Positions 10,796 through 29,675 are shown, numbered from the stretch's first letter. The stretch is DNA of 47,583 bases from Clostridiales bacterium (GCA_918285425.1 CAKJZE010000021.1:1-47583); one strand, 5' to 3'. Notes: generated by a model from the sequence alone, not told the origin. Made by a program: numbers and translations.

Positions 10796-10853
10796 ATACT
10801 ATGAAAGTCTTGAAGCGGTCATCCCCCCTTTTGACCAATTTAAGATAAAGTTT

Positions 10854-10941
10854 GGAGAGATGGCTGAGCGGTCGAAAGCGGCGGTCTTGAAAACCGTTGA
10901 TGTGCAAGCATCCTGGGGTTCGAATCCCTATCTCTCCGCCA
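10854..10941 (+). tRNA. tRNA-Ser (anticodon UGA), CCA encoded
   Basis: Hand-folded. Acceptor GGAGAGA/TCTCTCC; anticodon stem GCGGT/ACCGT with loop CTTGAAA (anticodon TGA); long variable arm GATG...CATC; T arm TGGGG-TTCGAAT-CCCTA; discriminator G followed by CCA. Confidence 0.92.
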
Positions 10942-13959: not shown

Positions 13960-13979
13960 TTATTCTCCTTATAATATCA

Positions 13980-14124
13980 AAGTGGGTATCCCACTTGTGT
14001 AAGCAAATGGGAGTGGTAAAAAATGCAAAAAGAATTGTTGTTCAAAGTGAGTCACCGGAAACGCTTGTTTTTAGGGGCTTTTTCACTTTGAAAATAGCAT
14101 TTTGAACCTACTCTTATCCTGCTT
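13980..14124 (+). repeat. Left copy of the ~145-nt inverted repeat bracketing the R-M operon
   Basis: Matches the reverse complement of 18901-19046 at roughly 85 percent identity by eye. The outer end is the 17-nt palindrome aagtgggtatcccactt. Confidence 0.9.
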
Positions 14125-14164
14125 GGTAAAATTACACTCATATTATAACGCCAATTTAAGAAAA

Positions 14165-14204
14165 TTGCAACAATTTATTCGCAAATACAAATATTTTGTT
14201 GCAA
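14165..14204. promoter_or_regulatory. Perfect 9-bp inverted repeat (candidate operator for the HTH controller)
   Basis: TTGCAACAA (14165-14173) and TTGTTGCAA (14196-14204) separated by 22 nt. The right arm overlaps the predicted -35. Confidence 0.45.
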
Positions 14205-14227
14205 AATTAAAAATAAAGTAGTATACT
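14199..14227 (+). promoter_or_regulatory. candidate promoter of the R-M operon
   Basis: TTGCAA, 17 nt, TATACT, about 30 nt upstream of the HTH gene. Confidence 0.45.
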
Positions 14228-14256
14228 TATCATAGATTATTTAAAGAGGTCTAAAA

Positions 14257-14457
14257 ATGAGTATTTCGTATAACAAACTTTGGAAACTTTTGATTGATAA
14301 AAATATGACAAAAACAGATTTGAGATTGCAAGCTGATATCGCAACTTCCACTCTTGCTAAACTTAGTAAAAACGAACAAGTAAGCATGGAAGTTTTGCTT
14401 AAAATTTGTAAAACACTAGATTGCGATTTTGATGATATAATTGAGAGGGTTGATTAA
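14257..14457 (+). CDS. small HTH (XRE/Cro-like) protein, likely controller (C) protein of the R-M operon
   Basis: 66 aa (MTKTDLRLQADIATSTLAKLSKNEQVSMEVLLKICKTLDCDFDDII). First gene of the operon; its stop lies 1 nt before the methylase ATG. Confidence 0.75.
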   Translation: MSISYNKLWKLLIDKNMTKTDLRLQADIATSTLAKLSKNEQVSMEVLLKICKTLDCDFDDIIERVD

Positions 14458-14458
14458 T

Positions 14459-15370
14459 ATGTGTAAAGGAATTGCAAAACCATTTTTAAAATGGGCTGGC
14501 GGTAAAGGTCAACTGCTTAACAAGTTTGAAGAGATGTATCCACAGGAACTTATAAATGGCGAAATTGACACATACATTGAACCTTTTGTTGGTGGTGGTG
14601 CAGTTTTATTTGATGTCCTTCAAAAATATAAAATTAAAAAAGTGGTTATTGTTGACTTAAACAAAGAACTTGTAAATTGTTATCGTTGTATTAAAGCCGA
14701 TGTAAATGAACTTATAAAACATCTTAAAACTTTGCAAGATGAATTTTTATCACTGAGTGATGAAAAGAGGAAAGATTATTTCTTAAAAGTTAGAAATAGA
14801 TATAATGAAATTCATCTTAATGGGAAATATGATTTTGAAAAAGCCGCAGATTTCATTTTTTTAAATAAAACTTGTTTTAATGGTCTTTATAGAGTAAATA
14901 GCAAAGGTGAATTTAATGTCCCATTCGGTAAATATAAAAATCCATTGATTTGTGATAGCGAGAATTTAACTCTAATAAGCAAACTTTTACAAAATGTAGA
15001 AATAAGATTTGGAGATTATTCTATTTGTGAAGAATATGTAAATGGAAAAACTTTTATATACTTTGACCCACCTTATCGCCCACTTATAGAAAATTCATCA
15101 TTTGTTGGTTATGATAAATCTGGTTTTAATGATGACAATCAAAAAGAACTGGCTGAATTTGTAAAAAAACTTGATAAGCAAAATTGTTTAGTAATGCTTA
15201 GCAATTCAGATCCTAAAAACACTAATCCTGATGATAATTTCTTTGATGAACTTTACAAAGGATTTCAGATTGATAGAATCTTTGCAAAAAGAATGATAAA
15301 TTGCCAAGCAGATAAACGAGGAGATATAACTGAAATTGTTGTAAGAAATTACAAAAGGAGAAAATTTTAA
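14459..15370 (+). CDS. Dam/DpnM-type N6-adenine DNA methyltransferase (GATC class)
   Basis: PFLKWAGGKGQLL N-terminus, motif I EPFVGGGAV, motif IV FDPPY. The ATG at 14459 is preceded by GAGAGG. Confidence 0.88.
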   Translation: MCKGIAKPFLKWAGGKGQLLNKFEEMYPQELINGEIDTYIEPFVGGGAVLFDVLQKYKIKKVVIVDLNKELVNCYRCIKADVNELIKHLKTLQDEFLSLSDEKRKDYFLKVRNRYNEIHLNGKYDFEKAADFIFLNKTCFNGLYRVNSKGEFNVPFGKYKNPLICDSENLTLISKLLQNVEIRFGDYSICEEYVNGKTFIYFDPPYRPLIENSSFVGYDKSGFNDDNQKELAEFVKKLDKQNCLVMLSNSDPKNTNPDDNFFDELYKGFQIDRIFAKRMINCQADKRGDITEIVVRNYKRRKF

Positions 15371-16249
15371 ATGAGAAGTAAAACAATCAATGTTTTCTTA
15401 ATGGACGGAGACCCTACTTGCAAAATAAAATGCACATTGCAAAATTGGACTGGAATAGCTTATAAAATTCCAAGAACAATGCTAGAAGATTGCAAAGAGG
15501 GAGAAAAAGATATAGTTAAACATTTAAAACAGACAGGAATTTATTTTCTATTAGGAGAAGATTCCAATACAGGAAATAAAGCAATTTATGTTGGACAAGC
15601 TGTTTCTAGGAAAAATGGCGAAGGATTACTTTGTAGATTATTAGAACATAAAAGGAATATGAAGGAAAAATATTGGAATGACTGGAATGAAGTTATAGTT
15701 TTTACAACTCAAAATGATTCATTTGGTCCAACAGAAATTAGTTACCTTGAAAATAAATTTACTAATCTTGCTAGAAGTGCTGGAAGATATGAAGTAAAGA
15801 ATGGTAATGAGCCTAACCCAGGTAATATCACAGAAGAAAAAGAAAGTGAACTTTTAGAATATGTGGATTATGCTCGAATTATTATAGGAATGCTTGGACA
15901 TAAAGTTTTTGAACAATTAGTAAAATCAAATCCTCTTACGAATAAAGTTGATAGCCCTATCTTCTATTTTAAAGGCAAAATAAAAGCAACTGGCATTTTT
16001 ACCAATGAAGGTTTTGTCGTATTAAAAGGTTCTTCAATAAGTCCCAAGTTAAATCCAAGTGCACATAAATTCACAATTAAAGCAAGAGAAATGAACAAAA
16101 ACAAAATAGATGAAAATTATATTTTATTAGAAGATGTTTTGTTTACAAGCCCATCAGCAGCAGCCGGATTTGTAGGCGGTTCAAGTTTAAGTGGAAATGC
16201 AATGTGGGTAACAAGTTATGGCAAATCACCAAAAGATGTCGAATTATAA
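15371..16249 (+). CDS. GIY-YIG nuclease domain protein with a C-terminal DUF4357-like domain
   Basis: GIYFLLG...IYVGQA...RLLEH...ISYLE (GIY-YIG). C-terminal FVVLKGS...SPSAAAGFVGGSSLSGNAMW is recalled as the DUF4357 signature. Its ATG directly abuts the methylase stop. Confidence 0.7.
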   Translation: MRSKTINVFLMDGDPTCKIKCTLQNWTGIAYKIPRTMLEDCKEGEKDIVKHLKQTGIYFLLGEDSNTGNKAIYVGQAVSRKNGEGLLCRLLEHKRNMKEKYWNDWNEVIVFTTQNDSFGPTEISYLENKFTNLARSAGRYEVKNGNEPNPGNITEEKESELLEYVDYARIIIGMLGHKVFEQLVKSNPLTNKVDSPIFYFKGKIKATGIFTNEGFVVLKGSSISPKLNPSAHKFTIKAREMNKNKIDENYILLEDVLFTSPSAAAGFVGGSSLSGNAMWVTSYGKSPKDVEL

Positions 16250-16265
16250 AACATAGGAGAACATT

Positions 16266-17123
16266 ATGAAAAGAAATTTTAAAGAATGGTTAAATGATTT
16301 CACAGATAGTATTGCAACTTATGAATACTACACCGAATTTAATATAGTTTATAAAAACATTGATAAACTTAAAGTTGAACTTAACATTATGAATTCTCTT
16401 ATTGGTTCAAAGAATATTGAACAGGATTTTGATAATCTTTTCAAAAAATATCCAGAGATAAGGAAATGTTTGCCACTTCTTATTGCTGTTAGAGAAAATG
16501 AAATTAAAGTTATTGATGAAGGCGAAAAACTTAAATACAACTTCAAAACAATAGATGATATTGATTTACTAAAAAGGTTTATGAGAAAAACTGGGCTTTT
16601 TGACTTAATATCAAATCATTTAGTAAACAATCTTGTCGATTACACTACTGGAGTTGAAGTTGGACTTGGCTCAAATGGAAGAAAAAATCGTGGTGGACAT
16701 CTAATGGAAGATGTATTGCAAGGATATATTGAAAAAGCTGGATTTGTAAAAAATCAAACATATTTCAAAGAAATGTATTTGAGTGATATTGAGAAAAAAT
16801 GGAATATTGATTTATCAAAACTTTCTAATCTTGGCAAGGTAGCAAAAAGATTTGATTATGTTGTAAAAACAAAAAATTGTATTTATGCCTTTGAAACAAA
16901 CTTCTATTCAAGCAATGGCTCAAAATTAAATGAAACTGCAAGAAGCTATAAAATGCTTGCTGAAGAAAGTAAATATATTAAAGGATTTGCTTTTGTTTGG
17001 GTTACTGATGGTTTAGGTTGGCAAGGCGCTAAAAATAATCTTGAAGAAACATTTGATGTTTTAGATAACATCTTCAATCTAAAAGAATTGGAACAAGGTA
17101 AATTAAAGGAAATATTAAAATAA
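16266..17123 (+). CDS. DpnII/MboI-family type II restriction endonuclease (GATC)
   Basis: Long blocks match my recollection of R.DpnII: LNIMNSLIGSKNI, LVDYTTGVEVGLGSNGRKNRGG, GSKLNETARSYKM, WVTDGLGWQGAKNNLEETFD. Confidence 0.85.
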   Translation: MKRNFKEWLNDFTDSIATYEYYTEFNIVYKNIDKLKVELNIMNSLIGSKNIEQDFDNLFKKYPEIRKCLPLLIAVRENEIKVIDEGEKLKYNFKTIDDIDLLKRFMRKTGLFDLISNHLVNNLVDYTTGVEVGLGSNGRKNRGGHLMEDVLQGYIEKAGFVKNQTYFKEMYLSDIEKKWNIDLSKLSNLGKVAKRFDYVVKTKNCIYAFETNFYSSNGSKLNETARSYKMLAEESKYIKGFAFVWVTDGLGWQGAKNNLEETFDVLDNIFNLKELEQGKLKEILK

Positions 17124-17842
17124 TGCAAGAAGAATTTGAACTTGAAACTAACACCGTTTGGAGTTTTCCTAATCGTGGCAAATGGGCAACACATGATGCA
17201 AAATATCGTGGGAATTTTTCGCCCTATGTAGCAAAAAATATAATTTTGAGGTATTCACAACCAAACGATTATGTGTTAGATCAATTTGTTGGTGGTGGCA
17301 CCACTCTTGTCGAATGTAAGTTAAACAATAGAAATGCTATTGGAATTGATATAAACCCTAAAGCTGTTGAATTAACAAAAGAAAAACTTAATTTTGATTG
17401 CAATTTTTCAAACAATATAGAAGTTCAACTTGGCGATGCTTGTAACTTAAAAAATATTGATGACAATAGTATTGATTTAATTTGCACTCATCCACCTTAT
17501 GCAGACATTATCAAATATAGTGATGATATTGATGGCGATTTATCTCACTTAAAATACAAAGAGTTCTTGACTGCAATTGAAAAAGTTGCTAGTGAATGTT
17601 ATAGAGTGCTTAAAAAAGACAAATTTTGTGCTATTGTTATGGGAGATACTAGAAAAAAAGGCATGGTGCAACCACTTGGTTTTGAAGTTATGCAAAGATT
17701 TGTAAATGCCGGCTTTAAACAAAAAGAAATAATTATAAAAGAACAACACAATTGTAAAGCAACAGGTTTTTGGAAAACAAATAGTCAAAAATTTAATTTT
17801 TTACTTTTAGCACATGAATATATTTTTATATTTAAAAAATAA
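17123..17842 (+). CDS. second DNA methyltransferase (motif order X-I-IV, gamma-like)
   Basis: WSFP...THDAKYRGNFSPYVAKNIILRYSQPNDYVLDQFVGGGTT (motifs X and I), then CTHPPYADI (motif IV with His in the usual D/N/S position). Its start overlaps the endonuclease stop by 1 nt. Confidence 0.75.
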   Translation: MQEEFELETNTVWSFPNRGKWATHDAKYRGNFSPYVAKNIILRYSQPNDYVLDQFVGGGTTLVECKLNNRNAIGIDINPKAVELTKEKLNFDCNFSNNIEVQLGDACNLKNIDDNSIDLICTHPPYADIIKYSDDIDGDLSHLKYKEFLTAIEKVASECYRVLKKDKFCAIVMGDTRKKGMVQPLGFEVMQRFVNAGFKQKEIIIKEQHNCKATGFWKTNSQKFNFLLLAHEYIFIFKK

Positions 17843-17850
17843 GGAGAATT

Positions 17851-18894
17851 ATGGAGAAGAAATTTTCAAGTTCAAAAGGCCTTTCAAAATCGTTAATGTT
17901 TGAATGGGTGGTTCGAAGAATACTTGAAGAACAGTATGTTGTCAATACAGTGGATCAAACTTTAAATGGATTCGATTTAAAAACTGTTGATAATATCAAT
18001 ATAGAAATAAAATATACAACAAGAAGCAACTTGTTGAGTTTTGTAAATTCTTTAAAGTTTTTTATAGAAACTCATCCAAATTACGCACTCGAACGAATAA
18101 TTTTTATAACAAGTTCTATTTGTGAAGATGTATTTTCTAATCAAAATAAAAGTGATGAAGTTAAATCACTTAACATTATTTCATTGGAAAATCTAATCTA
18201 TTTATGTAAAGATAATGATAATTTACTATCTCAATTAAAAATGTGTTTAAATTTTTCAACAGAAAATATAAAACCAATACCTCTTGATGAAAACGTTCAA
18301 AAATTATTACAACCTTCAAAAAAAGAAAACTTTAAAAAAGTTGAGAATATTGATTATTATAATAAATTAATATCAATTCCTCATGGCCGAAATCATTTTT
18401 CGCAATATGAAAAATTCTGTGAGGATTTTATTAAAACCATTTTTCAAGATAATATTGAGGACCCTATTCCACAAAAAATTAACAATCAAGGCTTATATAG
18501 GTTTGATTTAGTAGCAGCATTAAAATCAGAAGCAAAAAGTTTTTGGAAATTTATATACGATAAATATAATTCATGTTTCATTTTGTTTGATTGCAAAAAT
18601 TATACAGGGACAATTGAACAAGAAGAAATTTATTCAACAGAGAGATATTTATATAATAATGCTTTAAGAAATGTAGGTATTATACTATCCAGAAAAGGGG
18701 CTTCTCTTCATGCCAAAATTGCCTGCCAAGGTATTCTTAAAGAACATGGCAAATTAATATTAGTTCTTGATGACAATGATATGAAAGAATTAGAAATCTT
18801 ATATAAAAATAATAAAAAAGGCATTGACTACCCGACTCCATCAGATTTTTTATTTGATAAGGCAAAAGACTTTTTGTTAAATTTAGACAAATAA
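17851..18894 (+). CDS. hypothetical protein with two PD-(D/E)xK-like motifs (restriction-endonuclease-like)
   Basis: GFDLKTVDNINIEIKY near the N-terminus and YRFDLV...FILFDCKNY in the C-terminal half. AAGGAG RBS. Last gene of the operon, ending 6 nt before the right inverted repeat. Confidence 0.5.
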   Translation: MEKKFSSSKGLSKSLMFEWVVRRILEEQYVVNTVDQTLNGFDLKTVDNINIEIKYTTRSNLLSFVNSLKFFIETHPNYALERIIFITSSICEDVFSNQNKSDEVKSLNIISLENLIYLCKDNDNLLSQLKMCLNFSTENIKPIPLDENVQKLLQPSKKENFKKVENIDYYNKLISIPHGRNHFSQYEKFCEDFIKTIFQDNIEDPIPQKINNQGLYRFDLVAALKSEAKSFWKFIYDKYNSCFILFDCKNYTGTIEQEEIYSTERYLYNNALRNVGIILSRKGASLHAKIACQGILKEHGKLILVLDDNDMKELEILYKNNKKGIDYPTPSDFLFDKAKDFLLNLDK

Positions 18895-18900
18895 AATAGT

Positions 18901-19046
18901 AAGCAGGATAAGAGTGGATTCAAAATGCCATTTTCAAAGTAAAAAAGTCCCTAAAAACAATAGTTTCCAGTGACTCACTTTGAACAACAATTCCTTTTGG
19001 CATTTTTACCCACTCCCTTTTTAGCAAGCAAGTGGGATACCCACTT
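18901..19046 (-). repeat. Right copy of the ~145-nt inverted repeat bracketing the R-M operon
   Basis: Reverse complement of 13980-14124. The outer palindrome aagtgggatacccactt (19030-19046) is followed here by a T-run, so on the plus strand it doubles as a terminator for the operon. Confidence 0.9.
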
Positions 19047-19171
19047 CTTTTTTTATATAAACTAGTGAAAATTTTTAATTTATATGTTATAATATGAACG
19101 GCACTTATCCGAGAGTGCCACGGATTAAAGTCAATTGTTGCTATATGCTTTTTGTATAATGCAAAAAGTGT

Positions 19172-19411
19172 ATGAAGAAAACAATTGATGAACAATGTTT
19201 TATTGATTGTGTAAATATAGATGAAAACACTGCTACTTACAACTTTAACACAAAAATATTAAAGCAAGGCAAAGTAAATATGTCCCAAAAGCAAATAAAC
19301 CATATCGGTTCTATTCTTGCAACTGACTTAAAAAACTTTGCAGAAAGTAATGGCGACTTTTCAAATCTAACAGCAAATGAAGTTTATACTCATTTGTTGG
19401 ATAATCAATAA
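19172..19411 (+). CDS. hypothetical 79-aa protein (gene X)
   Basis: No clear Shine-Dalgarno sequence. Its last 10 codons recur at 22493-22522 with only synonymous differences, which supports real coding. Confidence 0.5.
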   Translation: MKKTIDEQCFIDCVNIDENTATYNFNTKILKQGKVNMSQKQINHIGSILATDLKNFAESNGDFSNLTANEVYTHLLDNQ

Positions 19412-19511
19412 ACATTGCAAAGAAGAAGTTGAAAAAACTTCTTCTTTTTTTTGTTAGACTCTATAAATTTCTATTTAATTGTGCTATAATGATAATTAGT
19501 GAGGAGCACAT
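19370..19511 (+). repeat. 5' junction element, copy a (gene X 3' end + terminator + promoter + RBS)
   Basis: Aligns collinearly with 22481-22621 at about 70 percent identity by eye, up to the start codon of the downstream gene. Confidence 0.75.
19421..19452 (+). terminator. Terminator after gene X
   Basis: agaagaagtt-gaaaa-aacttcttct followed by a T-run. Confidence 0.75.
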
Positions 19512-21683
19512 ATGATTAATAAAATTGAGTTAAACAATATTGCTACATATAAGCATTGTGAAATATATCCTAAAAAAATTAATTATATTTATGGAGGTAA
19601 TGGCACAGGCAAAACTTCAATATCAAAATTTTTAGCAAATCCAGTAAATTATCCTACAAGCAATTTGACCACAGAAAATTATCCAATTGATATACTTGTA
19701 TATAATAAAGACTTTATAGAAGATAATTTTGATAAGGATAAATCAATAAAGGGAATATTTACAATTGGAGAAGAAAATAAAGAAATAGAAGAAAATATAA
19801 ACAAATTGTTAATAAAAAAAGAAGAAATCGAAAAACAAAAAACTATACGCATTAATAAAATTGAAGAATTTACCGAGAATGCAAAAACCTTGCATAACGA
19901 ATTTTGTAATAATTGTTGGACAATAAAAAAAGTTGCAGAACCATATAAAAAATCTATAAGTGGTGTTTTAAATTCTAGAGAAGCATTTGCCGAAATGTGC
20001 GATAAGAACTTTTTAAATACAAAAACAACGACAGAACTTGGTTCATTTGATGAAAGATACAAAATGCTATATGAGACACATATGCAAGTATATAATAAGT
20101 TTTCAGAATTAGAATTTACAAGATTATCTGAAATTGAAAACAATTCTCTATTAAATAAAAGTATCATAGCAAAGGAAGATAATCCACTGTCGTCTATAAT
20201 TCAAAAGTTAAACAATAGTGACTGGATTAAACAAGGTGTAGAATATTTAGATAGCACTCATAACATTTGCCCATTTTGTCAAAGAGAACTAACAGCCAAA
20301 ACGATAAAGGATTTAGAGAATTTATTTGATGAAGAATATGACAAAAATATGAATGAATTAAAAACACTAAACGATGAATATCAGAAATTATCAAATAGTT
20401 TAATTCTCAATATGGAAAATGTTGCTCAAACTTCTTATCAAATATTAGATTATTCAGGCATAAGTACATTATTATTAGAAATAAAGTCTGTAATAAAAGA
20501 CAATATAAAGCTTTTAAATGATAAAATAAAGTTTCCTTCAAATAAGATTGAATTAAATAAAACTAATAATTTATTGAACCAAATAAATTCTGTGATTAAA
20601 GAATACAATAGAATAATTAAAAGAAATAATGAACTATCTTCTAAGCAATTACAAGAAAAGAATAAGTTAAGCAATGATATATGGCAAGCGATTTCAAATA
20701 ATTATCTTTATGAAACCATAAATGAATATAGGAAAAAGAGTGAAGGAATTAAATCTGCGACTCATAAAATGATGATGGAAAGAGACTCTTATGCTCAAGA
20801 CATTGCCGAAATAGAAATAGAGATTAACAATTTGCAATCCAAAGTATCTACTATTGACAACGCGATTAATGAAATAAATAAAATATTAAAAGGGTTTGCT
20901 TTTACAGGTTTTTATTTGCGTAAAGCTAAAGATAATAGAAATTATGAAATAATTCGCGAAGATGGGAGTAATGCAAAAGATACATTAAGTGAGGGTGAAG
21001 AACGTTTTATTACATTTCTCTATTTTATTCAATTAATAAATGGCAATGTAGAAAATAAAAGAACAATAAATAAAAAAGTTGTAGTAATAGATGACCCCAT
21101 TTCAAGTCTTGATAGCAATATTATATTTATTGTAAGTTCTCTTGTAAAAGAGATTATAAACAATTGCATCAATAGCAACAATTTAATAGATCAAGTTATA
21201 GTATTAACACATAACATCTATTTTCATCATCAAATTAGTTTCAGACCAAAAAGTAATCAATTGTCACCTAATTTGTTTTCATTTTTTACAATCCATAAAA
21301 AAGATAATCTTTCAACAATTGAACAATCTCAAAAGAATTTGATTCAAACATCATATGAACTTTTATGGCAGGAAATAAAGCAGCCAGAAATAACAAGTAG
21401 GGCTAATATATTCAACTCAATGAGAAGAATTTTAGAATATTATTTTGATATTATTGGTGGGTTAGACTATGATAATCTTATATCTACATTTACCGGCGAA
21501 GACAAAATTATTTGTAATTCTTTAATTTCTTTTGTAAATGCTAATTCACATTCTATTGCAGATGATTTTGTTATTGGATTTAGTGAAGAAGATATAGACA
21601 AATATTTAGTTGTCTTTAAAAAAATATTTATTAATAGTAATCATAAAGCACATTACGAAATGATGATGTCTAGAGAATACTAA
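19512..21683 (+). CDS. RloC/PrrC-like anticodon nuclease (AAA_13-type ABC-like ATPase with zinc-hook coiled coil)
   Basis: Walker A GGNGTGKTS; long Lys/Glu/Asn-rich coiled coil containing CPFC; LSEGEERF signature; Walker B VVVIDDPISSLD; LTHN; C-terminal MRRILEYYF ... NANSH, resembling the PrrC Arg-Glu-His nuclease triad. Confidence 0.7.
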   Translation: MINKIELNNIATYKHCEIYPKKINYIYGGNGTGKTSISKFLANPVNYPTSNLTTENYPIDILVYNKDFIEDNFDKDKSIKGIFTIGEENKEIEENINKLLIKKEEIEKQKTIRINKIEEFTENAKTLHNEFCNNCWTIKKVAEPYKKSISGVLNSREAFAEMCDKNFLNTKTTTELGSFDERYKMLYETHMQVYNKFSELEFTRLSEIENNSLLNKSIIAKEDNPLSSIIQKLNNSDWIKQGVEYLDSTHNICPFCQRELTAKTIKDLENLFDEEYDKNMNELKTLNDEYQKLSNSLILNMENVAQTSYQILDYSGISTLLLEIKSVIKDNIKLLNDKIKFPSNKIELNKTNNLLNQINSVIKEYNRIIKRNNELSSKQLQEKNKLSNDIWQAISNNYLYETINEYRKKSEGIKSATHKMMMERDSYAQDIAEIEIEINNLQSKVSTIDNAINEINKILKGFAFTGFYLRKAKDNRNYEIIREDGSNAKDTLSEGEERFITFLYFIQLINGNVENKRTINKKVVVIDDPISSLDSNIIFIVSSLVKEIINNCINSNNLIDQVIVLTHNIYFHHQISFRPKSNQLSPNLFSFFTIHKKDNLSTIEQSQKNLIQTSYELLWQEIKQPEITSRANIFNSMRRILEYYFDIIGGLDYDNLISTFTGEDKIICNSLISFVNANSHSIADDFVIGFSEEDIDKYLVVFKKIFINSNHKAHYEMMMSREY

Positions 21684-21792
21684 CTATTGTTTTCACCCAC
21701 CCAGCGCCTACAAATATTCTAGGGTTAGGATTGGATTGCGCCCGCTCCGCCAATCGTAACCTAAATCGAACCACTCGATTTGGGTTTATTTT
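21684..21792 (+). repeat. 3' junction element R1 (conserved ~65-nt core + private terminator hairpin)
   Basis: Starts at the stop codon of 19512-21683. Core ...CCACCCAGCGCC..TAGGGTTAGGATTGGAT..GCTCCGCCA. Hairpin 21758-21769/21775-21786 followed by a T-rich tail. Confidence 0.85.
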
Positions 21793-21812
21793 ATATCTTA
21801 GGGGGTATTTCG

Positions 21813-22433
21813 ATGTATCATTTTGGTGTACTTGTTAGTGAAAATTAAAAGCTTACGAGAGAAAAATACATAAATTATTATAAAGAAAATAAGCAGCAAT
21901 TTACATTAGAAGATATTCTTTACAACTATGATCTTAATATTGATTATTACAATAATCTTAATAAAGTAGATTTTGATAAAGAATTAAATAGGTTTTTCAA
22001 TAAGTTTAAAAGATTTAGAGAAATATATGATTTACAAGAATGCAATTGTGACGGTTTTTATATAATGATTTTGGATAATTATAAGCAAGTATATATTGGT
22101 ATTGCTGATAATATTAAGAAACGTATTTTACAGCATTGGAAAAACAGTCCTAATACTATGATTGTTGGCACAAAAAACAACTCTAAATTATGCATCGATT
22201 CTTTCAAAGCATTGGATACAACAAGAATTTTTGTCTATACAAATGAACAATTTGCAATTAACGTAAGAAATGCTAATCTGATTATGGAAGATGAAAAAAA
22301 TAGTCATTTAATAAAACACGTTTCAGAAACCTTGGAAGATGAAGAAAATAAAATGATTAAATATTTTAACAACAAATATACATGTAATAGATTTGCACGA
22401 CTAATCATGAAATCATTCTATAGAGATTTTTAA
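21813..22433 (+). pseudogene. GIY-YIG nuclease gene interrupted by an in-frame TAA at 21846-21848
   Basis: AGGGGG RBS, then ATG at 21813 encoding MYHFGVLVSEN, then TAA. The same frame then stays open for 195 codons, through GFYIMILDNYKQVYIGIADNIKKRILQHW (GIY...YIG...R...H). There is no ATG/GTG/TTG between 21849 and the ATG at 22065, and that ATG lies inside the GIY motif. Confidence 0.7.
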
Positions 22434-22480
22434 AAATTTATTATTTGTCCAATTTTTAATTATTGTATTTATTAAAAACA

Positions 22481-22621
22481 ACAACAAATAAAGTTTATAC
22501 TCACTTGCTAGACAATCAATAAACACTGCAAAAGGAAGAACTTGAAATATAGTTCTTCCTTTTTTGTTTTCACTATGGACATTTAACTAAAAATATTGTA
22601 TAATAATTTTAGGAGATAATT
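22481..22621 (+). repeat. 5' junction element, copy b (relic of the gene X C-terminus + terminator + promoter + RBS)
   Basis: 22493-22522 encodes VYTHLLDNQ-stop, as in gene X. An upstream in-frame TAA at 22457 shows that only a relic remains. Terminator ggaagaact-tgaaatat-agttcttcc and a TATAAT box follow. Confidence 0.75.
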
Positions 22622-22981
22622 ATGAAAGATTTAAATTATAAAAGAGTAATTGCATATGCCAATTATTTGGTTTTATTTGTTGATGATGAAGATAGACAAT
22701 CCAAGATTATAGCAAAACTAAAAGAATATAATGACAAACTGCCTGATGGTAAACTAATAGATAAATTACAAAACAAATATTTATCTAAAAAAAATGATTA
22801 TTTTGAGATTGCAGAATTTTTATTGAAAGACATTGAAAAAACAAAGAATAAGGACAAATATTTGCCAACTATTCAACAATTATTAAAAGATATAGAAGAT
22901 ATTATTAACCCAAAAGATACCACTACTAAAATTGAAAGAAGTCCAGCCCAAAAGATTTCGGACTTATCAAGTTGGAGTTAA
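22622..22981 (+). CDS. hypothetical protein (119 aa)
   Basis: AGGAG RBS. Charged, helical-looking sequence with no recognised motif. Confidence 0.55.
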   Translation: MKDLNYKRVIAYANYLVLFVDDEDRQSKIIAKLKEYNDKLPDGKLIDKLQNKYLSKKNDYFEIAEFLLKDIEKTKNKDKYLPTIQQLLKDIEDIINPKDTTTKIERSPAQKISDLSSWS

Positions 22982-22982
22982 T

Positions 22983-23483
22983 ATGAAAAAAGGATGGAGA
23001 ATTGTAATATTAGTTGTTTGCATTCTTATAGCTATAGCAATACCAGTAATAACTATCATTCACTATTACAACATTGATATTGCTAGCATTTGGTCAACAT
23101 GGGGATTGCAAGAAGATAATACAACGATAAATTTGCCAGATACTGTAAACTACATAAAGCTATTATGGTATAAAAGTTCAATTTATATTGTTCCGCCAAT
23201 TTTCATTTTTATTGGATTAACTATCTTAAATCATAAACAAATAAACCTTAAAAAAAAGTGGTATTTTTATCTAATCCAAGGCTTTTCATTTTGGTATATA
23301 TCATTGCTTATGATTAAATTATTTTGTAATGAGATTTTGGAGTTAGATAGATGTTATAATATAACCTTCTTTAATGGTATAGAATCAATGCAATTACTTG
23401 TTGGTTATATAGTTTCGTTTATATTAAAAAGCAATATAGAATTAAACAAACCATATAGTGATGAAGTTAAAAAATTGAAATAA
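22983..23483 (+). CDS. hypothetical membrane protein (about 4 TM segments)
   Basis: The ATG at 22983 lies 1 nt after the upstream stop and is preceded by GGAG. Hydrophobic segments include IVILVVCILIAIAIPVITII, IYIVPPIFIFIGLTIL and FYLIQGFSFWYISLLMI. Confidence 0.6.
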   Translation: MKKGWRIVILVVCILIAIAIPVITIIHYYNIDIASIWSTWGLQEDNTTINLPDTVNYIKLLWYKSSIYIVPPIFIFIGLTILNHKQINLKKKWYFYLIQGFSFWYISLLMIKLFCNEILELDRCYNITFFNGIESMQLLVGYIVSFILKSNIELNKPYSDEVKKLK

Positions 23484-23590
23484 CTATTTTTAGCCACCCA
23501 GCACCAACATATATTTTAGGGTTAGAATTGGATAGCGTTGTTCTCGCCAAGCATAACGTAAATCTTATGAACTATGATTTGCGTTTTTTG
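23484..23590 (+). repeat. 3' junction element R2
   Basis: Begins at the stop codon. Core CCACCCAGCACC..TAGGGTTAGAATTGGAT..TTCTCGCCA. Hairpin 23555-23564/23576-23585 followed by a T-run. Confidence 0.85.
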
Positions 23591-23671
23591 TTTTTTAATA
23601 ATAAAGTAATTATACAATAAAATACTGAATTTAGAAATGTTTTATCATGTGGTAAACTTAAAACTTAATTA

Positions 23672-23700
23672 TTGACAAATTGCTAAAAATCCTGTAAAAT
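23672..23700 (+). promoter_or_regulatory. candidate promoter
   Basis: TTGACA, 17 nt, TAAAAT. Confidence 0.5.
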
Positions 23701-23726
23701 TTAAGTTGATATAAGGATAAAAGAGT

Positions 23727-24113
23727 ATGGATAGAAACGAGACTGAACCTATCGCAAAGGATTTGATAGATAAAGCAAGAGAGCTGATGAAAGATGTTAA
23801 TGTTACATTTGATGAAGATTTTTGGGCTTATACAGCATTTGATAGAAAATGGAGACGTAAACCTGAATTTTGCTGTGGCAAAAAGAAAGAGTTGCTTGAC
23901 CAAATTTATGATGTAATAGGCAATTTGGACTACAATTCAACAATACATCTATTTGCACATATAACATCTGCTGAAATTGCTGCAGAACTACAAATGAAAG
24001 CTAAAGACGGATGGAAAAATCCTGCTGCACTCGATAAAAAAGCGTGTATATTATTGAGAAATGTGCGATCAAAAGTTGAATACGAAAAGAGCGAAACAAA
24101 TATAAAAATTTAA
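23727..24113 (+). CDS. hypothetical protein (128 aa)
   Basis: AAGGA RBS. No recognised motif. Followed by junction element R3. Confidence 0.55.
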   Translation: MDRNETEPIAKDLIDKARELMKDVNVTFDEDFWAYTAFDRKWRRKPEFCCGKKKELLDQIYDVIGNLDYNSTIHLFAHITSAEIAAELQMKAKDGWKNPAALDKKACILLRNVRSKVEYEKSETNIKI

Positions 24114-24222
24114 AATTTTATTTAACCAAACCACTACCGATATATATTTGGGTGTTAGAAATGGATAACATCGGCTCCGCCAGAAATTGTCTAAACATTC
24201 TATGTTTGTACAATTTTTTTTA
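24114..24222 (+). repeat. 3' junction element R3 (most diverged copy)
   Basis: Core CCAAACCACTACC..GGGTGTTAGAAATGGAT..GGCTCCGCCA. Hairpin 24186-24198/24202-24214 followed by T8. Confidence 0.75.
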
Positions 24223-24278
24223 TAAGTGATTTTTAATATATTTAATTGAGGTATATAATTTTGGAAACAAAAATTAAG

Positions 24279-24734
24279 ATGAAAAATAAAGTGGGGCAAT
24301 ATGGCGTCATAAACAAAACTGGAAAAATTGGCAGTTCTGCTGTATTGTACAAAACTACAGATCCCGAATTTTGGAAAAATATAGAAAAGGGTATAAAATC
24401 ATCTGTAAAATCCGTAATTAATATTGGCTATGAAACATATAGTTCATGCCAAGGCCATAGAGGTACATTATATAATAAAAGGACTTTAACCGTTATTTTG
24501 TCAAATGAAGAAATAGATATTTGGATTTATTTTTTAGATACTTTAAATATTTTCTTTTTGACAGATCATCCAATTACATATCTTTTAATTCCAAAAAGTG
24601 ATAACAAAACAAATATCATGATTAATTTTGGAGATATTGAAAACAAAAAATGTGTAAAAATTAATCAGAAATATTTTAATAAGTTTGTGACAGTAATAAA
24701 TAAGCTCAAATTTGTTTGCGATGATATTTCTTGA
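24279..24734 (+). CDS. hypothetical protein (151 aa) upstream of the radical SAM gene
   Basis: ORF only. The start is uncertain (track start 24246 is non-ATG) and the RBS is weak. No motif recognised. Confidence 0.4.
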   Translation: MKNKVGQYGVINKTGKIGSSAVLYKTTDPEFWKNIEKGIKSSVKSVINIGYETYSSCQGHRGTLYNKRTLTVILSNEEIDIWIYFLDTLNIFFLTDHPITYLLIPKSDNKTNIMINFGDIENKKCVKINQKYFNKFVTVINKLKFVCDDIS

Positions 24735-24759
24735 CTAAATGTATCAGATGATGTATAAT
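24731..24759 (+). promoter_or_regulatory. near-consensus sigma-70 promoter for the radical SAM gene
   Basis: TTGACT (24731-24736), exactly 17 nt, TATAAT (24754-24759). Confidence 0.65.
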
Positions 24760-24785
24760 GTTACTGTTGTATTTGAGGATAAAAT

Positions 24786-25895
24786 ATGAAAAAATTTAAA
24801 AGTTTAAATGTATTAATAAAACCAACTAATGGTTGTAATTTAAGATGTAAATATTGCTTTAATAATGAATATTCTACAGAAATGTTGAATATGAATGATT
24901 TTAAAAAACTCATATCTTTGTTAACAAAAAGATACAATAGTATAAGTATAATTTGGCATGGCGGCGAACCTACATTGTGGGGCTATGAAAATTTTAAAAA
25001 GGCAAATGATATTATAAAAAAATATTCTAAAAAAACAAAATTTTATCAGTGTATTCAATCTAATTGCGTTCATATTGATGATAAATTAATTGATTTCTTC
25101 ATTGAAAATAATATTTCAATTGGTTCATCTTTTGATGGAATTGATAATGACAAAACAAGAGGTTGTACAACGCAATATCTAAATACGATTGAAAAGTTAA
25201 ATAATAAAGGTATGCATGTGGGTGCTATCTGTGTAATAACACAACAAAATATAAATTCATTGTTGGATAATTATAATTATTTTAAACAAAGAAACCAATC
25301 CCTTAATTTAAGACCTATGATTAATTCAGGAGAAGCATTAAAAAATGCAGATGTTTATTCTGTGGATATAGAAGCATATATAGATAGTTTAAAAAAACTA
25401 CTTGAAGTATGGTTTTATGATACAACTTGCAATATTAAATTGCAACCATTCGAAACATTTTTGAATATGTTATTATACAAAAAAACATCAGTTTGCTGTT
25501 ATAATTCTTGTTTAACAAAGTGGCTCTGTCTTGAATCAAATGGTGATATTACACCATGTAACAGATGGTTCCCTTCAGAATATAAATATGGGAATATTAA
25601 AGAAATAAAATCTATCAAACAAATTTTTAAATCTGAAGGTTTAAAAAATCTTCTTGTTAAAGCTATTAAAAGAAGAGAAAAGTGTAAAGAGAATTGTGAA
25701 TATTTTGATGTTTGCAATGGTGGTTGTAATAATGAAGCACTTGTAAGTGGTGATATATCAAATAATGATATGCCAACATGTAAAATATTAAAAGCAATAA
25801 TACCCGATCTTAAGATATTAATTTCAAATGTAGAGGATATAAATAAGATTAATCCAAAAATTAAAGAGAGAGTGGGAAAATACATTAATCAGTAA
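24786..25895 (+). CDS. radical SAM enzyme with C-terminal SPASM-type auxiliary cluster domain (peptide maturase type)
   Basis: CNLRCKYC (CxxxCxxC) at residues 17-24. C-terminal Cys-rich region: CCYNSC...CLESNGDITPC...CKENCEYFDVCNGGC. Confidence 0.88.
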   Translation: MKKFKSLNVLIKPTNGCNLRCKYCFNNEYSTEMLNMNDFKKLISLLTKRYNSISIIWHGGEPTLWGYENFKKANDIIKKYSKKTKFYQCIQSNCVHIDDKLIDFFIENNISIGSSFDGIDNDKTRGCTTQYLNTIEKLNNKGMHVGAICVITQQNINSLLDNYNYFKQRNQSLNLRPMINSGEALKNADVYSVDIEAYIDSLKKLLEVWFYDTTCNIKLQPFETFLNMLLYKKTSVCCYNSCLTKWLCLESNGDITPCNRWFPSEYKYGNIKEIKSIKQIFKSEGLKNLLVKAIKRREKCKENCEYFDVCNGGCNNEALVSGDISNNDMPTCKILKAIIPDLKILISNVEDINKINPKIKERVGKYINQ

Positions 25896-25926
25896 TTTTT
25901 TTTAAAATGAAAAACATATAAATCAG

Positions 25927-25956
25927 TTGACAAAATGATAGTTTTAATGGTAAACT
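25927..25956 (+). promoter_or_regulatory. candidate promoter in front of the precursor genes
   Basis: TTGACA, 18 nt, TAAACT, about 20 nt upstream of an AAGGAG RBS. Confidence 0.5.
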
Positions 25957-25978
25957 TTGCAAGTAAGGAGAAGAAATT

Positions 25979-26143
25979 ATGTTTAGTATTAAAAATTTAA
26001 TTAAAAAATATAAAAAGCAATCATTAAAATTAGCGTATGCATATAATGATAGTGGAAAACACACAGATCACGAAGATCATATCGATCATGATACACGTTT
26101 GGGTCACGTTGATCATGATGATCATACGGATTGGACTGATTAA
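25979..26143 (+). CDS. 54-aa putative RiPP precursor peptide 1 (His/Asp-rich core); not in the ORF track
   Basis: AAGGAG 7 nt upstream of the ATG. Product: MFSIKNLIKKYKKQSLKLAYAYNDSGKHTDHEDHIDHDTRLGHVDHDDHTDWTD. Its leader is shared with the next ORF. Confidence 0.7.
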   Translation: MFSIKNLIKKYKKQSLKLAYAYNDSGKHTDHEDHIDHDTRLGHVDHDDHTDWTD

Positions 26144-26174
26144 TTTCAAAATATTACATTATGGAGAACTTACT

Positions 26175-26300
26175 ATGTTTAATTTCAAAAAGCTATTAAA
26201 AAAATATAATAAACAAATATTAAAACCAGCTTATACAAATTGCAATTTTGAGCATGTAGATCACGATGCTCAATTTGGTCATATTGATAATGGCCAATAG
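26175..26300 (+). CDS. 41-aa putative RiPP precursor peptide 2
   Basis: GGAGAA RBS 8 nt upstream of the ATG at 26175. Product: MFNFKKLLKKYNKQILKPAYTNCNFEHVDHDAQFGHIDNGQ. The track shows it only as the tail of an 87-aa ORF starting at 26037, whose N-terminal part overlaps peptide 1 out of frame. Confidence 0.7.
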   Translation: MFNFKKLLKKYNKQILKPAYTNCNFEHVDHDAQFGHIDNGQ

Positions 26301-26346
26301 TATAATAATTTGGAATTGTTATAACAATAAAATCAAAAATAAATAT

Positions 26347-26378
26347 AAAAACAAGCATTTTTATATGCTTGTTTTTTG
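26347..26378. terminator. Bidirectional terminator
   Basis: aaaacaagcat-ttttat-atgcttgtttt with flanking A and T runs, between convergent genes. Confidence 0.75.
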
Positions 26379-26395
26379 TATTTAAATAGATTCTT

Positions 26396-27052: not shown

Positions 27053-27227
27053 AACAAGTTAATTGTAAAATAAATTTCTTAAGCTTGTCAATAATAAAAT
27101 TGAAAAATTGTATTGAGTTTTTATGTATTGATTTAATTATAATATAAATTCAAGTTCTGATATTTTTATAAAAAACATGACAATACTATTATTTGGTGCT
27201 ATAATAAGGATCAAAGGTAATTATCAT

Positions 27228-28830: not shown

Positions 28831-28859
28831 TTTTAAATAGGATTAACAAGGAGTAAAAT

Positions 28860-29660: not shown

Positions 29661-29675
29661 TATTGTGAGGTAAAT

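What the first reader, a model, noticed from the sequence alone, without database searches (positions are those of the whole stretch)
21684..24222. A recurring 3' junction element follows three consecutive unrelated cassettes, starting exactly at each stop codon
Immediately after the stop codons at 21683, 23483 and 24113 comes the same ~65-nt sequence: TAA-CTATT-TTT..CCACCCAGC-[var]-A(T/A)ATATT(C/T)T(A/G)GGGTTAG(G/A)A(T/A)TGGAT-[var]-(C/T)TC(C/G)GCCA. Each copy is followed by a different, private hairpin plus T-run terminator. R1 and R2 are very close; R3 is diverged but collinear. The two variable blocks flanking the GGGTTAGRATTGGAT core can pair with each other in R2 (CAAC/GTTG) and R3 (CCGAT/ATCGG), but only as GCGC/GCGC in a shifted register in R1, so structural covariation is suggestive rather than proven. 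Unrelated genes (an RloC-like nuclease, a membrane protein, a 128-aa unknown) sharing a precise downstream junction looks like a cassette system. The element could be a recombination target, a homology arm for cassette exchange, or a shared 3' UTR RNA module (stability, processing or sRNA).
Basis: seen in the sequence. Interest (0 to 1): 0.72.

Follow-up and report, generated by a model that had tools for sequence, protein, structure and literature searches.

The report
Island-end attachment-site scars at tRNA-Ser
The repeated 65-base element is the conserved right end (attachment-site arm) of mobile defence islands that a large serine recombinase inserts at the 3' end of tRNA-Ser genes, so three copies in a row mark three stacked, partly decayed islands, not an RNA module or an integron-like cassette site.

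Summary
Three collinear copies (21690-21752, 23488-23549, 24121-24182, + strand) each follow a gene and precede a hairpin with a T-run.

About 19 copies exist in total, all in Clostridia MAGs or metagenome contigs, and always downstream of and co-oriented with a tRNA-Ser gene when one is on the contig.

Every copy ends in (C)CTCCGCCA, the last 8 nt of tRNA-Ser. The window has tRNA-Ser(TGA) at 10854-10941, overlapped by a convergent large serine recombinase (LSR, 10928-12460). A related genome (L016) has the same tRNA and flanks but lacks window 10942-~26395.

In another species, five contigs share one flank at about 95% identity and diverge exactly at (T/C)CCGCCA. The left side is a complete tRNA-Ser in one contig, the element in three, and an unrelated island end in one.

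The element's AGGGTTAGGATT is mirrored by an invariant inverted AGGGTTCGGATT beside the LSR. Together they form a 53-bp attP-like dyad. The tRNA T-arm carries the same motif 5 bp closer to the centre, as expected for serine-integrase attB.

No RNA structure, covariation or Rfam match supports the RNA reading.

Verdict: these are attR and inter-island junctions from tandem accretion, a new member of a known kind (compare Dehalococcoides ssrA islands and SCC).

The parts
10854..10941 (+). tRNA-Ser(TGA), the integration target (B arm of attL). Its last 8 nt are CTCCGCCA and its T-arm reads GGGGTTCGAAT.
   Evidence: Found by Rfam and ARAGORN. It is identical up to CCA to the tRNA of the island-free relative L016, and the sequences diverge immediately after.
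10942..10990 (+). Recombinase-side island end (P' arm). It holds the inverted 12-mer AATCCGAACCCT at 10951-10962 (reverse complement AGGGTTCGGATT) inside a hairpin and T-run that now terminates the tRNA.
   Evidence: Conserved after CCA in all six LSR islands although the tRNAs differ. The 12-mer matches 12/12 at +10..+21 in all six. It is absent from the empty site L016.
10928..12460 (-). Large serine recombinase, 510 aa. It is convergent with the tRNA and its stop codon lies inside the tRNA.
   Evidence: Pfam Resolvase, Recombinase and Zn_ribbon_recom domains. Homologs at 71-95% identity lie against a convergent tRNA-Ser in the same way in L009, L010, L012, L013, L014 and L015.
12463..21683 (.). 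Cargo of the newest island: AbiO/Nhi-like gene, DpnII restriction-modification genes, PDC-S14, a 347-aa unknown, the 79-aa backbone gene, and PDC-S06 (AAA_13).
   Evidence: Pfam and PADLOC matches. GC is 27% against 35% in the flanks.
19172..19455 (+). Conserved 79-aa island backbone gene with its terminator (the 'type B' repeat, copy B1).
   Evidence: 62-85% amino-acid identity in L009, L010, L012, L014 and L015. Repeat family D3/D8. Profile hits.
21690..21752 (+). Element copy R1, the right end (P arm) of island 1. The 12-mer AGGGTTAGGATT is at 21721-21732 and the core CTCCGCCA at 21745-21752.
21753..21795 (+). Hairpin and T-run after R1, a degenerate P'-type arm of an older island.
   Evidence: Terminator scan hit at 21758-21786. 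Inverted motif 8/12 at +12. Aligns with the P' family.
21850..22433 (+). UzuA-like (GIY-YIG) gene lacking its 5' part, a relic of older island 2.
   Evidence: PADLOC UzuA match covers profile positions 162-246 of 277. The frame is open for 73 codons upstream of the first start codon.
22465..22570 (+). Remnant (B2) of the 3' end of the 79-aa backbone gene, with its terminator.
   Evidence: An equivalent remnant in L002 covers only aa 61-79.
22622..23483 (+). Cargo of island 2: a 119-aa gene and a 166-aa membrane-protein gene of unknown family, with a promoter-like site at 22576-22604.
23488..23549 (+). Element copy R2, the right end of island 2. The 12-mer is AGGGTTAGAATT and the core is TCTCGCCA.
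23550..23598 (+). 'T2' hairpin and T-run after R2. The same hairpin follows copies L005a and L005b and a degenerate tRNA 3' remnant in L001.
23727..24113 (+). Cargo of island 3: a 128-aa gene of unknown family, with a promoter-like site at 23672-23700.
24121..24182 (+). Element copy R3, the diverged GTGTTAG subtype also seen in L014, L015, L018 and L019. Its core is CTCCGCCA.
24183..24222 (+). Hairpin and T-run after R3.
24223..26395 (+). Distal part of the inserted block: a 162-aa gene, a radical SAM/SPASM maturase and two small His/Asp-rich ORFs. It is absent from L016, and no element copy or native tRNA terminator lies at its end.

Best explanation
The element is the conserved right-hand terminus (the P arm of attP) of a family of genomic islands that carry anti-phage defence cargo. 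A large serine recombinase (LSR) integrates these islands at the extreme 3' end of tRNA-Ser genes.

In the excised circle, the element would join the recombinase-side end through the shared core CTCCGCCA. That gives an attP of about 53 bp: AGGGTTAGGATT - 14 nt - CT|CCGCCA - 9 nt - AATCCGAACCCT, with inverted 12-mers at the two ends. attB is the tRNA-Ser 3' end, whose T-arm (RGGGTTCRAAT) carries the same motif 5 bp nearer the centre.

Recombination within CCGCCA rebuilds an intact tRNA, which is now terminated by the island's own hairpin (attL). It leaves the element plus CCGCCA plus the former downstream sequence at the far end (attR), right behind the last cargo gene.

New islands entering at the rebuilt tRNA push older ones outward (tandem accretion). 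Deletions then strip the older islands down to 'cargo gene + element + hairpin'. That is what the three copies in the window are.

Shown here: the insertion boundaries, the LSR and tRNA association, the dyad, and the tandem arrangement. Inferred: LSR binding to the element, the exact crossover dinucleotide, and the order and mechanism of stacking.
For: 1. All 14 aligned copies end in (C)C(T/C)CCGCCA-like sequence. That matches the 3' end of the tRNA-Ser genes, and each is followed within 1-8 nt by a hairpin, as the tRNA genes are.

2. The window LSR and six homologs (71-95% identity) all overlap a convergent tRNA-Ser(TGA or GCT). The element, where present, lies on the tRNA strand 7-10 kb away at the other end of the cargo.

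3. Empty site for the window. L016 matches window 10745-10941 at 94% and 26407-30241 at 85%, with only 158 nt between them. The sequences are identical through CCA and diverge immediately after.

4. attR at nucleotide resolution. L012, L018, L019, L020 and L021 share the same 220-nt flank and deaminase gene at 94-96% identity, and all diverge exactly at (T/C)CCGCCA. The left side is a complete tRNA-Ser in L021, the element in L012, L018 and L019 (with different cargo), and an unrelated island end in L020.

5. All six attL junctions carry the inverted 12-mer AGGGTTCGGATT at +10..+21, an 11/12 match to the element's AGGGTTAGGATT. The dyad centre falls on CT|CC of the shared core. The T-arm motif sits 5 bp closer, which is the published attB/attP rule for serine integrases (PMC3783163).

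6. In L015 an element-like junction lies between one island and a second, frameshifted LSR, which abuts it just as the first LSR abuts the tRNA.

7. Relics lie between R1 and R2: a truncated UzuA-like gene and a remnant of the 79-aa backbone gene.

8. Precedent: Dehalococcoides ssrA islands have a serine recombinase next to attL on the reverse strand, tandem islands, repeats of the target's 3' end with a conserved upstream motif, and units without an integrase (PMC3146451).
Against: 1. The conserved element extends about 26 nt (ACCCACCCAGCACCAACATATATTYT) beyond the predicted 53-bp site, and this part is unexplained.

2. Canonical serine integrases do not recombine attP with attL, so how new islands enter beside resident ones is unclear. 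SCC and the Dehalococcoides islands nevertheless stack.

3. The hairpins after R2, R3 and the L005 copies do not carry the inverted 12-mer at the expected spacing. Those junctions are probably not active sites.

4. The window's distal end (~26395) shows no element and no native tRNA terminator.

5. The tRNA in the 'empty' contig L021 is only 85% identical to the tRNA beside the L012 island, and their upstream flanks differ. L021 is therefore not the direct ancestor state.

6. L005 carries three element copies and four hairpins in 2.4 kb around single genes. That is more regular than random decay would predict.

7. All data are metagenomic. No excision product or enzymatic activity was observed.
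Confidence: 0.75

Rival explanations
1. Serine-recombinase gene-cassette system. The short units (promoter, one gene, element, hairpin) are autonomous non-coding-site cassettes. Each has its own attP-like site and is captured one by one at tRNA-Ser by an LSR supplied in trans, which would be functionally analogous to an integron.
For: L005 has three single-gene units of 545-722 bp, each ending in the element plus the same hairpin type. The L002/L003 contig carries an LSR-less array right after tRNA-Ser(GCT). The window's R2-R3 unit is 633 bp with its own promoter-like site. Some junction hairpins keep a partial inverted motif at the right spacing: L004 8/12, L003a 7/12, L002 7/12.
Against: Relics of backbone genes and a truncated gene inside the window's 'cassettes' point to decay of full islands. 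Most array hairpins lack the inverted 12-mer. No circular cassette has been observed. Canonical LSR directionality argues against repeated capture at a hybrid site.
Confidence: 0.12
2. Homology arms. The conserved junction (element, hairpin and next promoter) mainly serves as a portable region of identity for RecA-dependent shuffling of cargo between islands, as proposed for the promoter/stem-loop (PeSL) junctions of T4-type phages.
For: Similarity often runs through the hairpin into the next promoter region: window 22480-22606 against L002 7582-7708 at 84%, and window 23547-23625 against L005 at 81%. The same CYTH-type gene is followed by the element in L005 but not in the window.
Against: The window's CYTH gene is core DNA shared with L016, not island cargo. 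The breakpoints against the empty sites fall at one nucleotide position in CCGCCA, which is a site-specific signature. Homologous recombination does not explain the dyad with the recombinase-side end.
Confidence: 0.08
3. Shared 3' UTR RNA module. The element is transcribed with the upstream gene and acts as a stability, processing or sRNA element.
For: It lies between a stop codon and an intrinsic terminator, so it is almost certainly transcribed. Two of the three copies fold somewhat better than shuffles (z -2.6, -1.7 and -2.0), driven by the terminator hairpin. The distal 26 nt have no assigned role.
Against: No Rfam family matches, even at E up to 10. The consensus fold is -1.95 kcal/mol with one compensatory pair. 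The proposed helix pairs in 40% of cells, no better than shuffles. Conservation is at the level of primary sequence, and the variable block is unpaired in most copies.
Confidence: 0.05

Closest known systems
Dehalococcoides ssrA-specific genomic islands (McMurdie et al. 2011, PMC3146451)
   Same: The large serine recombinase is the first gene on the reverse strand next to attL. The target is the 3' end of a tRNA-like gene, which stays intact. Several islands are stacked downstream, each ending in a repeat of the target's 3' end preceded by a conserved island-specific motif. Some units lack an integration module.
   Different: The target here is tRNA-Ser (two isoacceptors) rather than tmRNA. 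The shared core is only 6-8 nt rather than 20 bp, and lies at the acceptor/CCA end rather than in the T-loop. There is a single recombinase with no DsiA partner. The cargo is anti-phage defence rather than dehalogenases, and the hosts are Clostridia.
Staphylococcal cassette chromosome (SCC/SCCmec) composite islands
   Same: LSR-driven insertion at the 3' end of a conserved gene. Tandem 'cassettes' are separated by repeats of the integration site sequence, and elements without recombinase genes sit in the array (from general knowledge; discussed in PMC3146451).
   Different: SCC targets the protein-coding gene rlmH and uses CcrAB or CcrC. No relationship of this LSR to the Ccr family was tested.
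Phage serine-integrase attP/attB sites (A118/LI integrase model, Rutherford et al. 2013, PMC3783163)
   Same: attP of about 50 bp with imperfect dyad symmetry. The distal (zinc-ribbon-domain) motif is present in attB 5 bp closer to the centre. The identical core is short. The integrase gene lies adjacent to attP.
   Different: Here the distal motif imitates the tRNA T-arm. The right half of attB shows no clear motif. The element is conserved about 26 nt beyond the expected site. Binding has not been tested.
Tandem accretion and cis-mobilizable elements (CIMEs) of streptococcal ICE/IME families (review PMC5704250)
   Same: An incoming element integrates next to a resident one. Deletion leaves att-flanked units without an integrase.
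   Different: The described cases mostly use tyrosine integrases. According to that review, site-specific serine recombinases of IMEs usually insert inside dispensable genes, not at a tRNA 3' end.
Integron attC sites
   Same: A recurring site lies directly 3' of unrelated small genes arranged in an array.
   Different: There is no tyrosine IntI. There is no R''-L''/L'-R' palindrome. The units have their own promoter-like sites and terminators. The site is tied to a tRNA 3' end and a serine recombinase.

Membership tests
Serine-integrase attachment site (P arm of attP, found at attR) | A large serine recombinase gene (Resolvase + Recombinase + zinc ribbon domains) belongs to the same element and lies next to the att site. 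| tested here: met
   Window 10928-12460. The same layout is seen in six homologous islands.
Serine-integrase attachment site (P arm of attP, found at attR) | The site lies exactly at the boundary between inserted DNA and host flank when compared with an unoccupied site. | tested here: met
   For attL, the window and L016 diverge right after CCA. For attR, L012, L018 and L019 diverge from L021 exactly at (T/C)CCGCCA. Caveat: the L021 tRNA allele differs from the one in L012 (85% identity).
Serine-integrase attachment site (P arm of attP, found at attR) | attP and attB share a short identical core that contains the crossover dinucleotide. | tested here: inconclusive
   A 6-8-nt shared core (CTCCGCCA / CCGCCA) is present. 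The dinucleotide itself cannot be determined from sequence.
Serine-integrase attachment site (P arm of attP, found at attR) | attP of about 50 bp with imperfect dyad symmetry. | tested here: met
   AGGGTTAGGATT (element) and inverted AGGGTTCGGATT (recombinase side, 12/12 in six islands) span 53 bp.
Serine-integrase attachment site (P arm of attP, found at attR) | The distal recognition motif sits 5 bp nearer the centre in attB than in attP. | tested here: inconclusive
   Met for the left half: the T-arm motif RGGGTTCRAAT is 21 nt from the centre against 26 nt for the element (rule from PMC3783163). No clear motif is seen in the right half of attB.
Serine-integrase attachment site (P arm of attP, found at attR) | The recombinase binds and recombines the site. 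| not testable with these tools
   This needs an in vivo or in vitro recombination assay.
Tandem-accretion island array (ssrA-GI / SCC / CIME type) | Several units lie in series downstream of one target gene, each ending in a repeat of the target's 3' end. | tested here: met
   Window: three units. L002/L003 contig: at least four junctions after tRNA-Ser(GCT). L015: two islands with two LSRs.
Tandem-accretion island array (ssrA-GI / SCC / CIME type) | Units without a recombinase show signs of derivation from full islands. | tested here: met
   Backbone-gene remnant B2 and a truncated UzuA-like gene lie between R1 and R2. A backbone remnant is also present in L002.
Integron (attC cassette array) | A tyrosine-recombinase IntI lies next to the array. 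| tested here: not met
   No tyrosine recombinase was found among the island ORFs scanned. The only recombinase is the serine type.
Integron (attC cassette array) | The site is an imperfect palindrome with R''/L'' and L'/R' boxes (RYYYAAC ... GTTRRRY). | tested here: not met
   Read directly from alignment A4. GTTAGGA fails the GTTRRRY consensus and has no complementary RYYYAAC partner at attC spacing. No consensus hairpin forms.
Structured cis-regulatory RNA or sRNA | A conserved secondary structure supported by covariation, or membership of a curated family. | tested here: not met
   no Rfam hit; -1.95 kcal/mol; pairing no better than shuffles.
MITE or dispersed repeat | Terminal inverted repeats and target-site duplication, scattered in many genomic contexts and in both orientations. 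| tested here: not met
   Only 3 matches came from two MAGs among 185,579 species genomes. There were 3 true matches in the JGI metagenomes and none in the viral, phage or plasmid sets. Copies are always co-oriented with tRNA-Ser.

The most novel reading that the evidence does not exclude
The short single-gene units (promoter, gene, element, hairpin) seen in L005, in L002/L003 and between R2 and R3 are not decay products. They would be a working cassette-capture system driven by a serine recombinase. Each cassette would carry its own attP-like site that imitates the tRNA T-arm, and would be inserted serially at tRNA-Ser. That would be a functional counterpart of integrons built on unrelated chemistry, and it would stock defence and housekeeping-type genes in gut and rumen Clostridia.
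Probability: 0.12. Interest if true: 0.75.

Novelty: new member of a known kind. Interest (0 to 1): 0.4.

Why it matters
- **Island boundaries.** The result turns an unexplained repeat into a usable marker. A 65-nt profile plus 'tRNA-Ser ... CCGCCA' delimits a family of defence islands and their stacked remnants in poorly studied Clostridia, at single-nucleotide resolution.
- **A candidate genome-engineering tool.** It points to a serine integrase with a compact, well-defined candidate attP (about 53 bp) and a universal, non-disruptive attB, the tRNA-Ser 3' end. The attP appears to imitate the tRNA T-arm with the 5-bp offset expected from structural work. That gives a natural test case for how these enzymes tell attP from attB.
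- **An open mechanistic question.** The arrays show that serine-recombinase islands can stack, which canonical directionality rules do not readily explain.

Tried and rejected
- **Known RNA family.** Rfam gave nothing at the gathering threshold or at E up to 10, for the window region and five loci.
- **RNA structure.** Single-sequence folds differ between copies on both strands. RNAalifold gave a negligible consensus.
- **Coding remnant or small ORF.** I considered a coding relic in the element, or a small ORF on the minus strand. Copies differ by indels that are not multiples of three, and substitutions show no codon pattern (read).
- **Promoter inside the element.** I looked for a promoter inside the element on both strands: TTTTCA-17-TATATT on the plus strand and TARAAT on the minus strand. 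The -35 boxes are not conserved, and promoter-like sites are not enriched in the region.
- **Integron attC and Xer/dif-like site.** Both rejected on sequence architecture.
- **Degenerate tRNA 3' half.** The element has no T-arm pairing, and its spacing is 5 nt longer than in the tRNA. This spacing difference became evidence for the att-site reading instead.
- **Exact-protein look-ups.** Look-ups for three window proteins found nothing.
- **Chance hit.** The viral and metagenome hit L007/L008 matched only the search pattern.
- **Phage and plasmid collections.** No match to the element.
- **GC content as a boundary marker.** It did not discriminate island from host in L012, L014 or L015.
- **Native tRNA terminator at the window's distal end.** Not found.
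Full report
**1. Checking the observation**

The three copies are real. They align collinearly. A repeat search reports them as one family at 21671-21740, 23468-23537 and 24101-24170, with 76% and 60% identity to the first copy. A profile built from 11 copies scores them at E 1.7e-20, 1.6e-19 and 6e-16 and finds nothing else in the window. Each is followed by a hairpin and a T-run.

The family-wide consensus is AATTTTMACCCACCCAGCACCAACATATATTYTAGGGTTAGGATTGGATARC, then 6-7 variable nt, then CTCCGCCA. R1 and R2 share TAACTATT starting at the stop codon. The conserved part begins 6-8 nt later.

**2. The element elsewhere**

A strict two-block pattern matched only three places among 185,579 species-representative genomes, all in two 'Clostridia bacterium' MAGs from roe-deer reticulum and yak omasum. 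A second pattern found three true copies in JGI metagenomes and only a chance match in viral contigs. Phage and plasmid collections have none. It is therefore not a generic dispersed repeat.

Within these contigs the copies cluster:
- Three lie in one 11-kb contig (L002/L003).
- Three lie in a 2.4-kb contig (L005).
- Each follows a different small gene, including NUDIX, GNAT-neighbour, CYTH-like, pyrophosphatase and kinase-like genes.

**3. No support for an RNA role**

Rfam gives no match, even at E up to 10. The RNAalifold consensus of 14 copies is -1.95 kcal/mol with one compensatory pair. Conservation is of primary sequence.

**4. The link to tRNA-Ser and a serine recombinase**

Every copy ends in the same 8 nt as the 3' end of tRNA-Ser and, like the tRNA genes, is followed within a few nt by a hairpin.

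The window carries tRNA-Ser(TGA) at 10854-10941. It also carries a convergent 510-aa large serine recombinase (LSR) at 10928-12460, whose stop codon lies inside the tRNA. Between it and R1 lie:
- an AbiO/Nhi-like gene;
- a DpnII restriction-modification system;
- PDC-S14 and PDC-S06 defence candidates.

LSR homologs at 71-95% identity were fetched with their contexts. In all six (L009, L010, L012, L013, L014, L015) the LSR overlaps a convergent tRNA-Ser(GCT or TGA). Wherever the contig reaches far enough (L012, L014, L015), one element copy lies 6.5-10.4 kb away on the tRNA strand, behind the last cargo gene.

The tRNA bodies differ between genomes. The sequence right after CCA (NNNGNGANNAATCCGAACCCTT..., a hairpin, then the LSR C-terminus) is conserved. 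It therefore belongs to the island.

**5. Boundaries at nucleotide resolution**

*Left boundary (attL).* L016, a Clostridia MAG whose flanks are 85-94% identical to the window, has the same tRNA-Ser(TGA). After 158 nt it continues with the homolog of window gene 26396-27052. The two sequences are identical through ...CTCTCCGCCA and diverge immediately after. Window 10942-~26395 (15.4 kb, GC 27% against 35%) is thus an insertion at the tRNA 3' end. Window 26396-30242, including the CYTH and SDR genes, is core DNA.

*Right boundary (attR).* In the species of L012, five contigs share the same flank and dCMP-deaminase gene at 94-96% identity. All diverge at exactly one point:

| Contig | Sequence left of the breakpoint | What it is |
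|---|---|---|
| L021 | ...TCTCACTC\|TCCGCCA\|AGAGGG... | complete tRNA-Ser(GCT) |
| L012 | ...GGATAACACTAGC\|CCCGCCA\|AGAGGG... | the element, behind an LSR island |
| L018, L019 | ...GGATAGCACTGGC\|TCCGCCA\|AGAGGG... | an element variant behind other cargo |
| L020 | ...CCAACATT\|TCCGCCA\|AGAGGG... | an unrelated island end |

Replacement occurs at CCGCCA, not at the stop codon.

One caveat applies. The L021 tRNA is only 85% identical to the tRNA at the L012 island, and their upstream flanks differ. L021 shows what an unoccupied junction looks like, not the direct ancestor.

**6. Architecture of the site**

The element contains AGGGTTAGGATT, ending 20 nt before the terminal CCA. All six recombinase-side ends contain the inverted AGGGTTCGGATT at +10..+21 after CCA, matching 12/12. 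Joined through the core, these make a 53-bp imperfect palindrome centred on CT|CC of CTCCGCCA. This position is also the left limit of attR/attB identity.

The tRNA T-arm (RGGGTTCRAAT) carries the same motif 21 nt from that centre, against 26 nt in the element. Rutherford et al. showed that serine-integrase attB sites carry the zinc-ribbon-domain motif 5 bp closer to the centre than attP sites (PMC3783163). The element's vague resemblance to a tRNA 3' half is thereby explained. It appears to imitate the T-arm at attP spacing. LSR binding itself is inferred, not shown.

**7. Why three copies occur in a row**

The hairpins after the copies are not private. They align as one family with the recombinase-side arm and with the sequences after tRNA-Ser in L002. 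The hairpin after R1 keeps 8/12 of the inverted motif.

In L015 an element-like junction sits between one island and a second, frameshifted LSR. That LSR is 52% identical to the first and abuts the junction as the first abuts the tRNA.

All full islands carry a conserved 79-aa gene upstream of the terminal cargo (62-85% amino-acid identity). Between R1 and R2 only its last ~100 nt survive (22465-22570), preceded by a UzuA-like gene that lacks its 5' part.

I therefore read the window as tRNA-Ser | island 1 (LSR ... PDC-S06, R1) | remains of island 2 (R2) | remains of island 3 (R3, the diverged GTGTTAG subtype) | a radical-SAM peptide cluster without an element. The apparent age gradient fits entry at the tRNA. 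R1 has the best junction, and R3 is the most diverged.

**8. What remains open**

- The distal 26 nt of the element lie outside the predicted site.
- Most array hairpins lack the inverted motif.
- Canonical serine integrases do not use attL as a target.
- L005's very regular single-gene units could mean that mini-cassettes are captured as such.

I give that cassette-capture reading about 12%, homology-arm shuffling about 8%, and an RNA role about 5%.

**9. Comparison with known systems**

The closest described system is the Dehalococcoides ssrA-specific islands. They have a serine recombinase first on the reverse strand next to attL, tandem islands, repeats of the target's 3' end with a conserved upstream motif, and units without an integration module (PMC3146451). 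SCC composite islands and streptococcal accretion/CIMEs are analogous (PMC5704250).

The differences here are:
- the target is tRNA-Ser, with two isoacceptors;
- the shared core is only 6-8 nt, at the acceptor/CCA end;
- there is a single recombinase;
- the cargo is defence genes;
- the motif imitates the T-arm.

The review notes that site-specific serine recombinases of mobilizable elements usually insert within dispensable genes. A non-disruptive tRNA 3'-end target is therefore uncommon, but the kind of system is known.

**10. Verdict**

The 'recombination target' option is supported in a specific form. The 'RNA module' and covariation readings are not supported. This is a new member of a known kind, of moderate interest.

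Noticed in passing
window 19332-19456 and 22465-22570; L002 7549-7672; L009 1014-1130; L012 4216-4335; L014 5496-5604; L015 5647-5759: A second recurring junction ('type B') is the 3' coding end and terminator of a conserved 79-aa gene present in every LSR island, with no family match in Pfam, NCBIfam or PADLOC. Window copy B2 and the L002 copy are remnants that lack the 5' part. The protein could be a directionality factor or a regulator.
   Followed up: partly
window 24246-26300: A 162-aa unknown gene and a radical SAM/SPASM peptide-maturase-like gene (best matches to dynobactin/darobactin-type maturases, far below the family cut-offs) are followed by two small ORFs rich in His and Asp (25979-26143 and 26175-26300). 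These ORFs lie in a 196-nt tandem duplication. The set looks like a RiPP cluster at the distal end of the insertion and is absent from the relative L016.
   Followed up: partly
window 10928-10941; L009 7039-7094: The LSR reading frame runs across attL into the tRNA, so its C-terminal tail depends on the host tRNA. It is 510 aa here, with the stop in CCCTATC of tRNA-Ser(TGA), and 524 aa for the 95%-identical protein next to tRNA-Ser(GCT). The tail would differ again in the excised circle.
   Followed up: no
L020 1-140: A different island family, whose end (...CGAACTCGTATTCCAACATT) is unrelated to the element, is joined to the same host flank at exactly the same TCCGCCA position. More than one element type therefore uses this crossover site.
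   Followed up: no
L001 3380-5751 and 3060-3260 (minus strand): A more distant LSR (41% identity) is co-directional with, not convergent on, a degenerate tRNA 3' remnant (GCGGAGCGAATCCCTCCGCTTCCGCCA). That remnant is followed by the same 'T2' hairpin as after R2. An inverted T-arm-like GGGATTCGAAC lies about 100 nt upstream. The layout is unexplained.
   Followed up: no
L002 4554-4588 vs 4720-4755, and 4812-4862 vs 6399-6449: A 5' fragment of tRNA-Ser lies about 165 nt upstream of the intact gene. The tRNA's last 10 nt and its terminator are repeated 1.6 kb downstream (88% identity), bracketing a unit whose right end is not the element.
   Followed up: partly
L015 12101-21572: On the host side of the tRNA-Ser lies a run of repeated gene pairs: small ORFs of about 98-106 aa alternating with Cys_rich_CPCC proteins of about 150 aa, plus DUF4417. 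This is a separate repetitive gene array.
   Followed up: no
L009 6-203 and L010 70-342: An island with a 95%-identical LSR carries different cargo, including a PycTM-like (Pycsar effector-type) gene and two cytosine methylases. The cargo region of this island family is highly variable.
   Followed up: no
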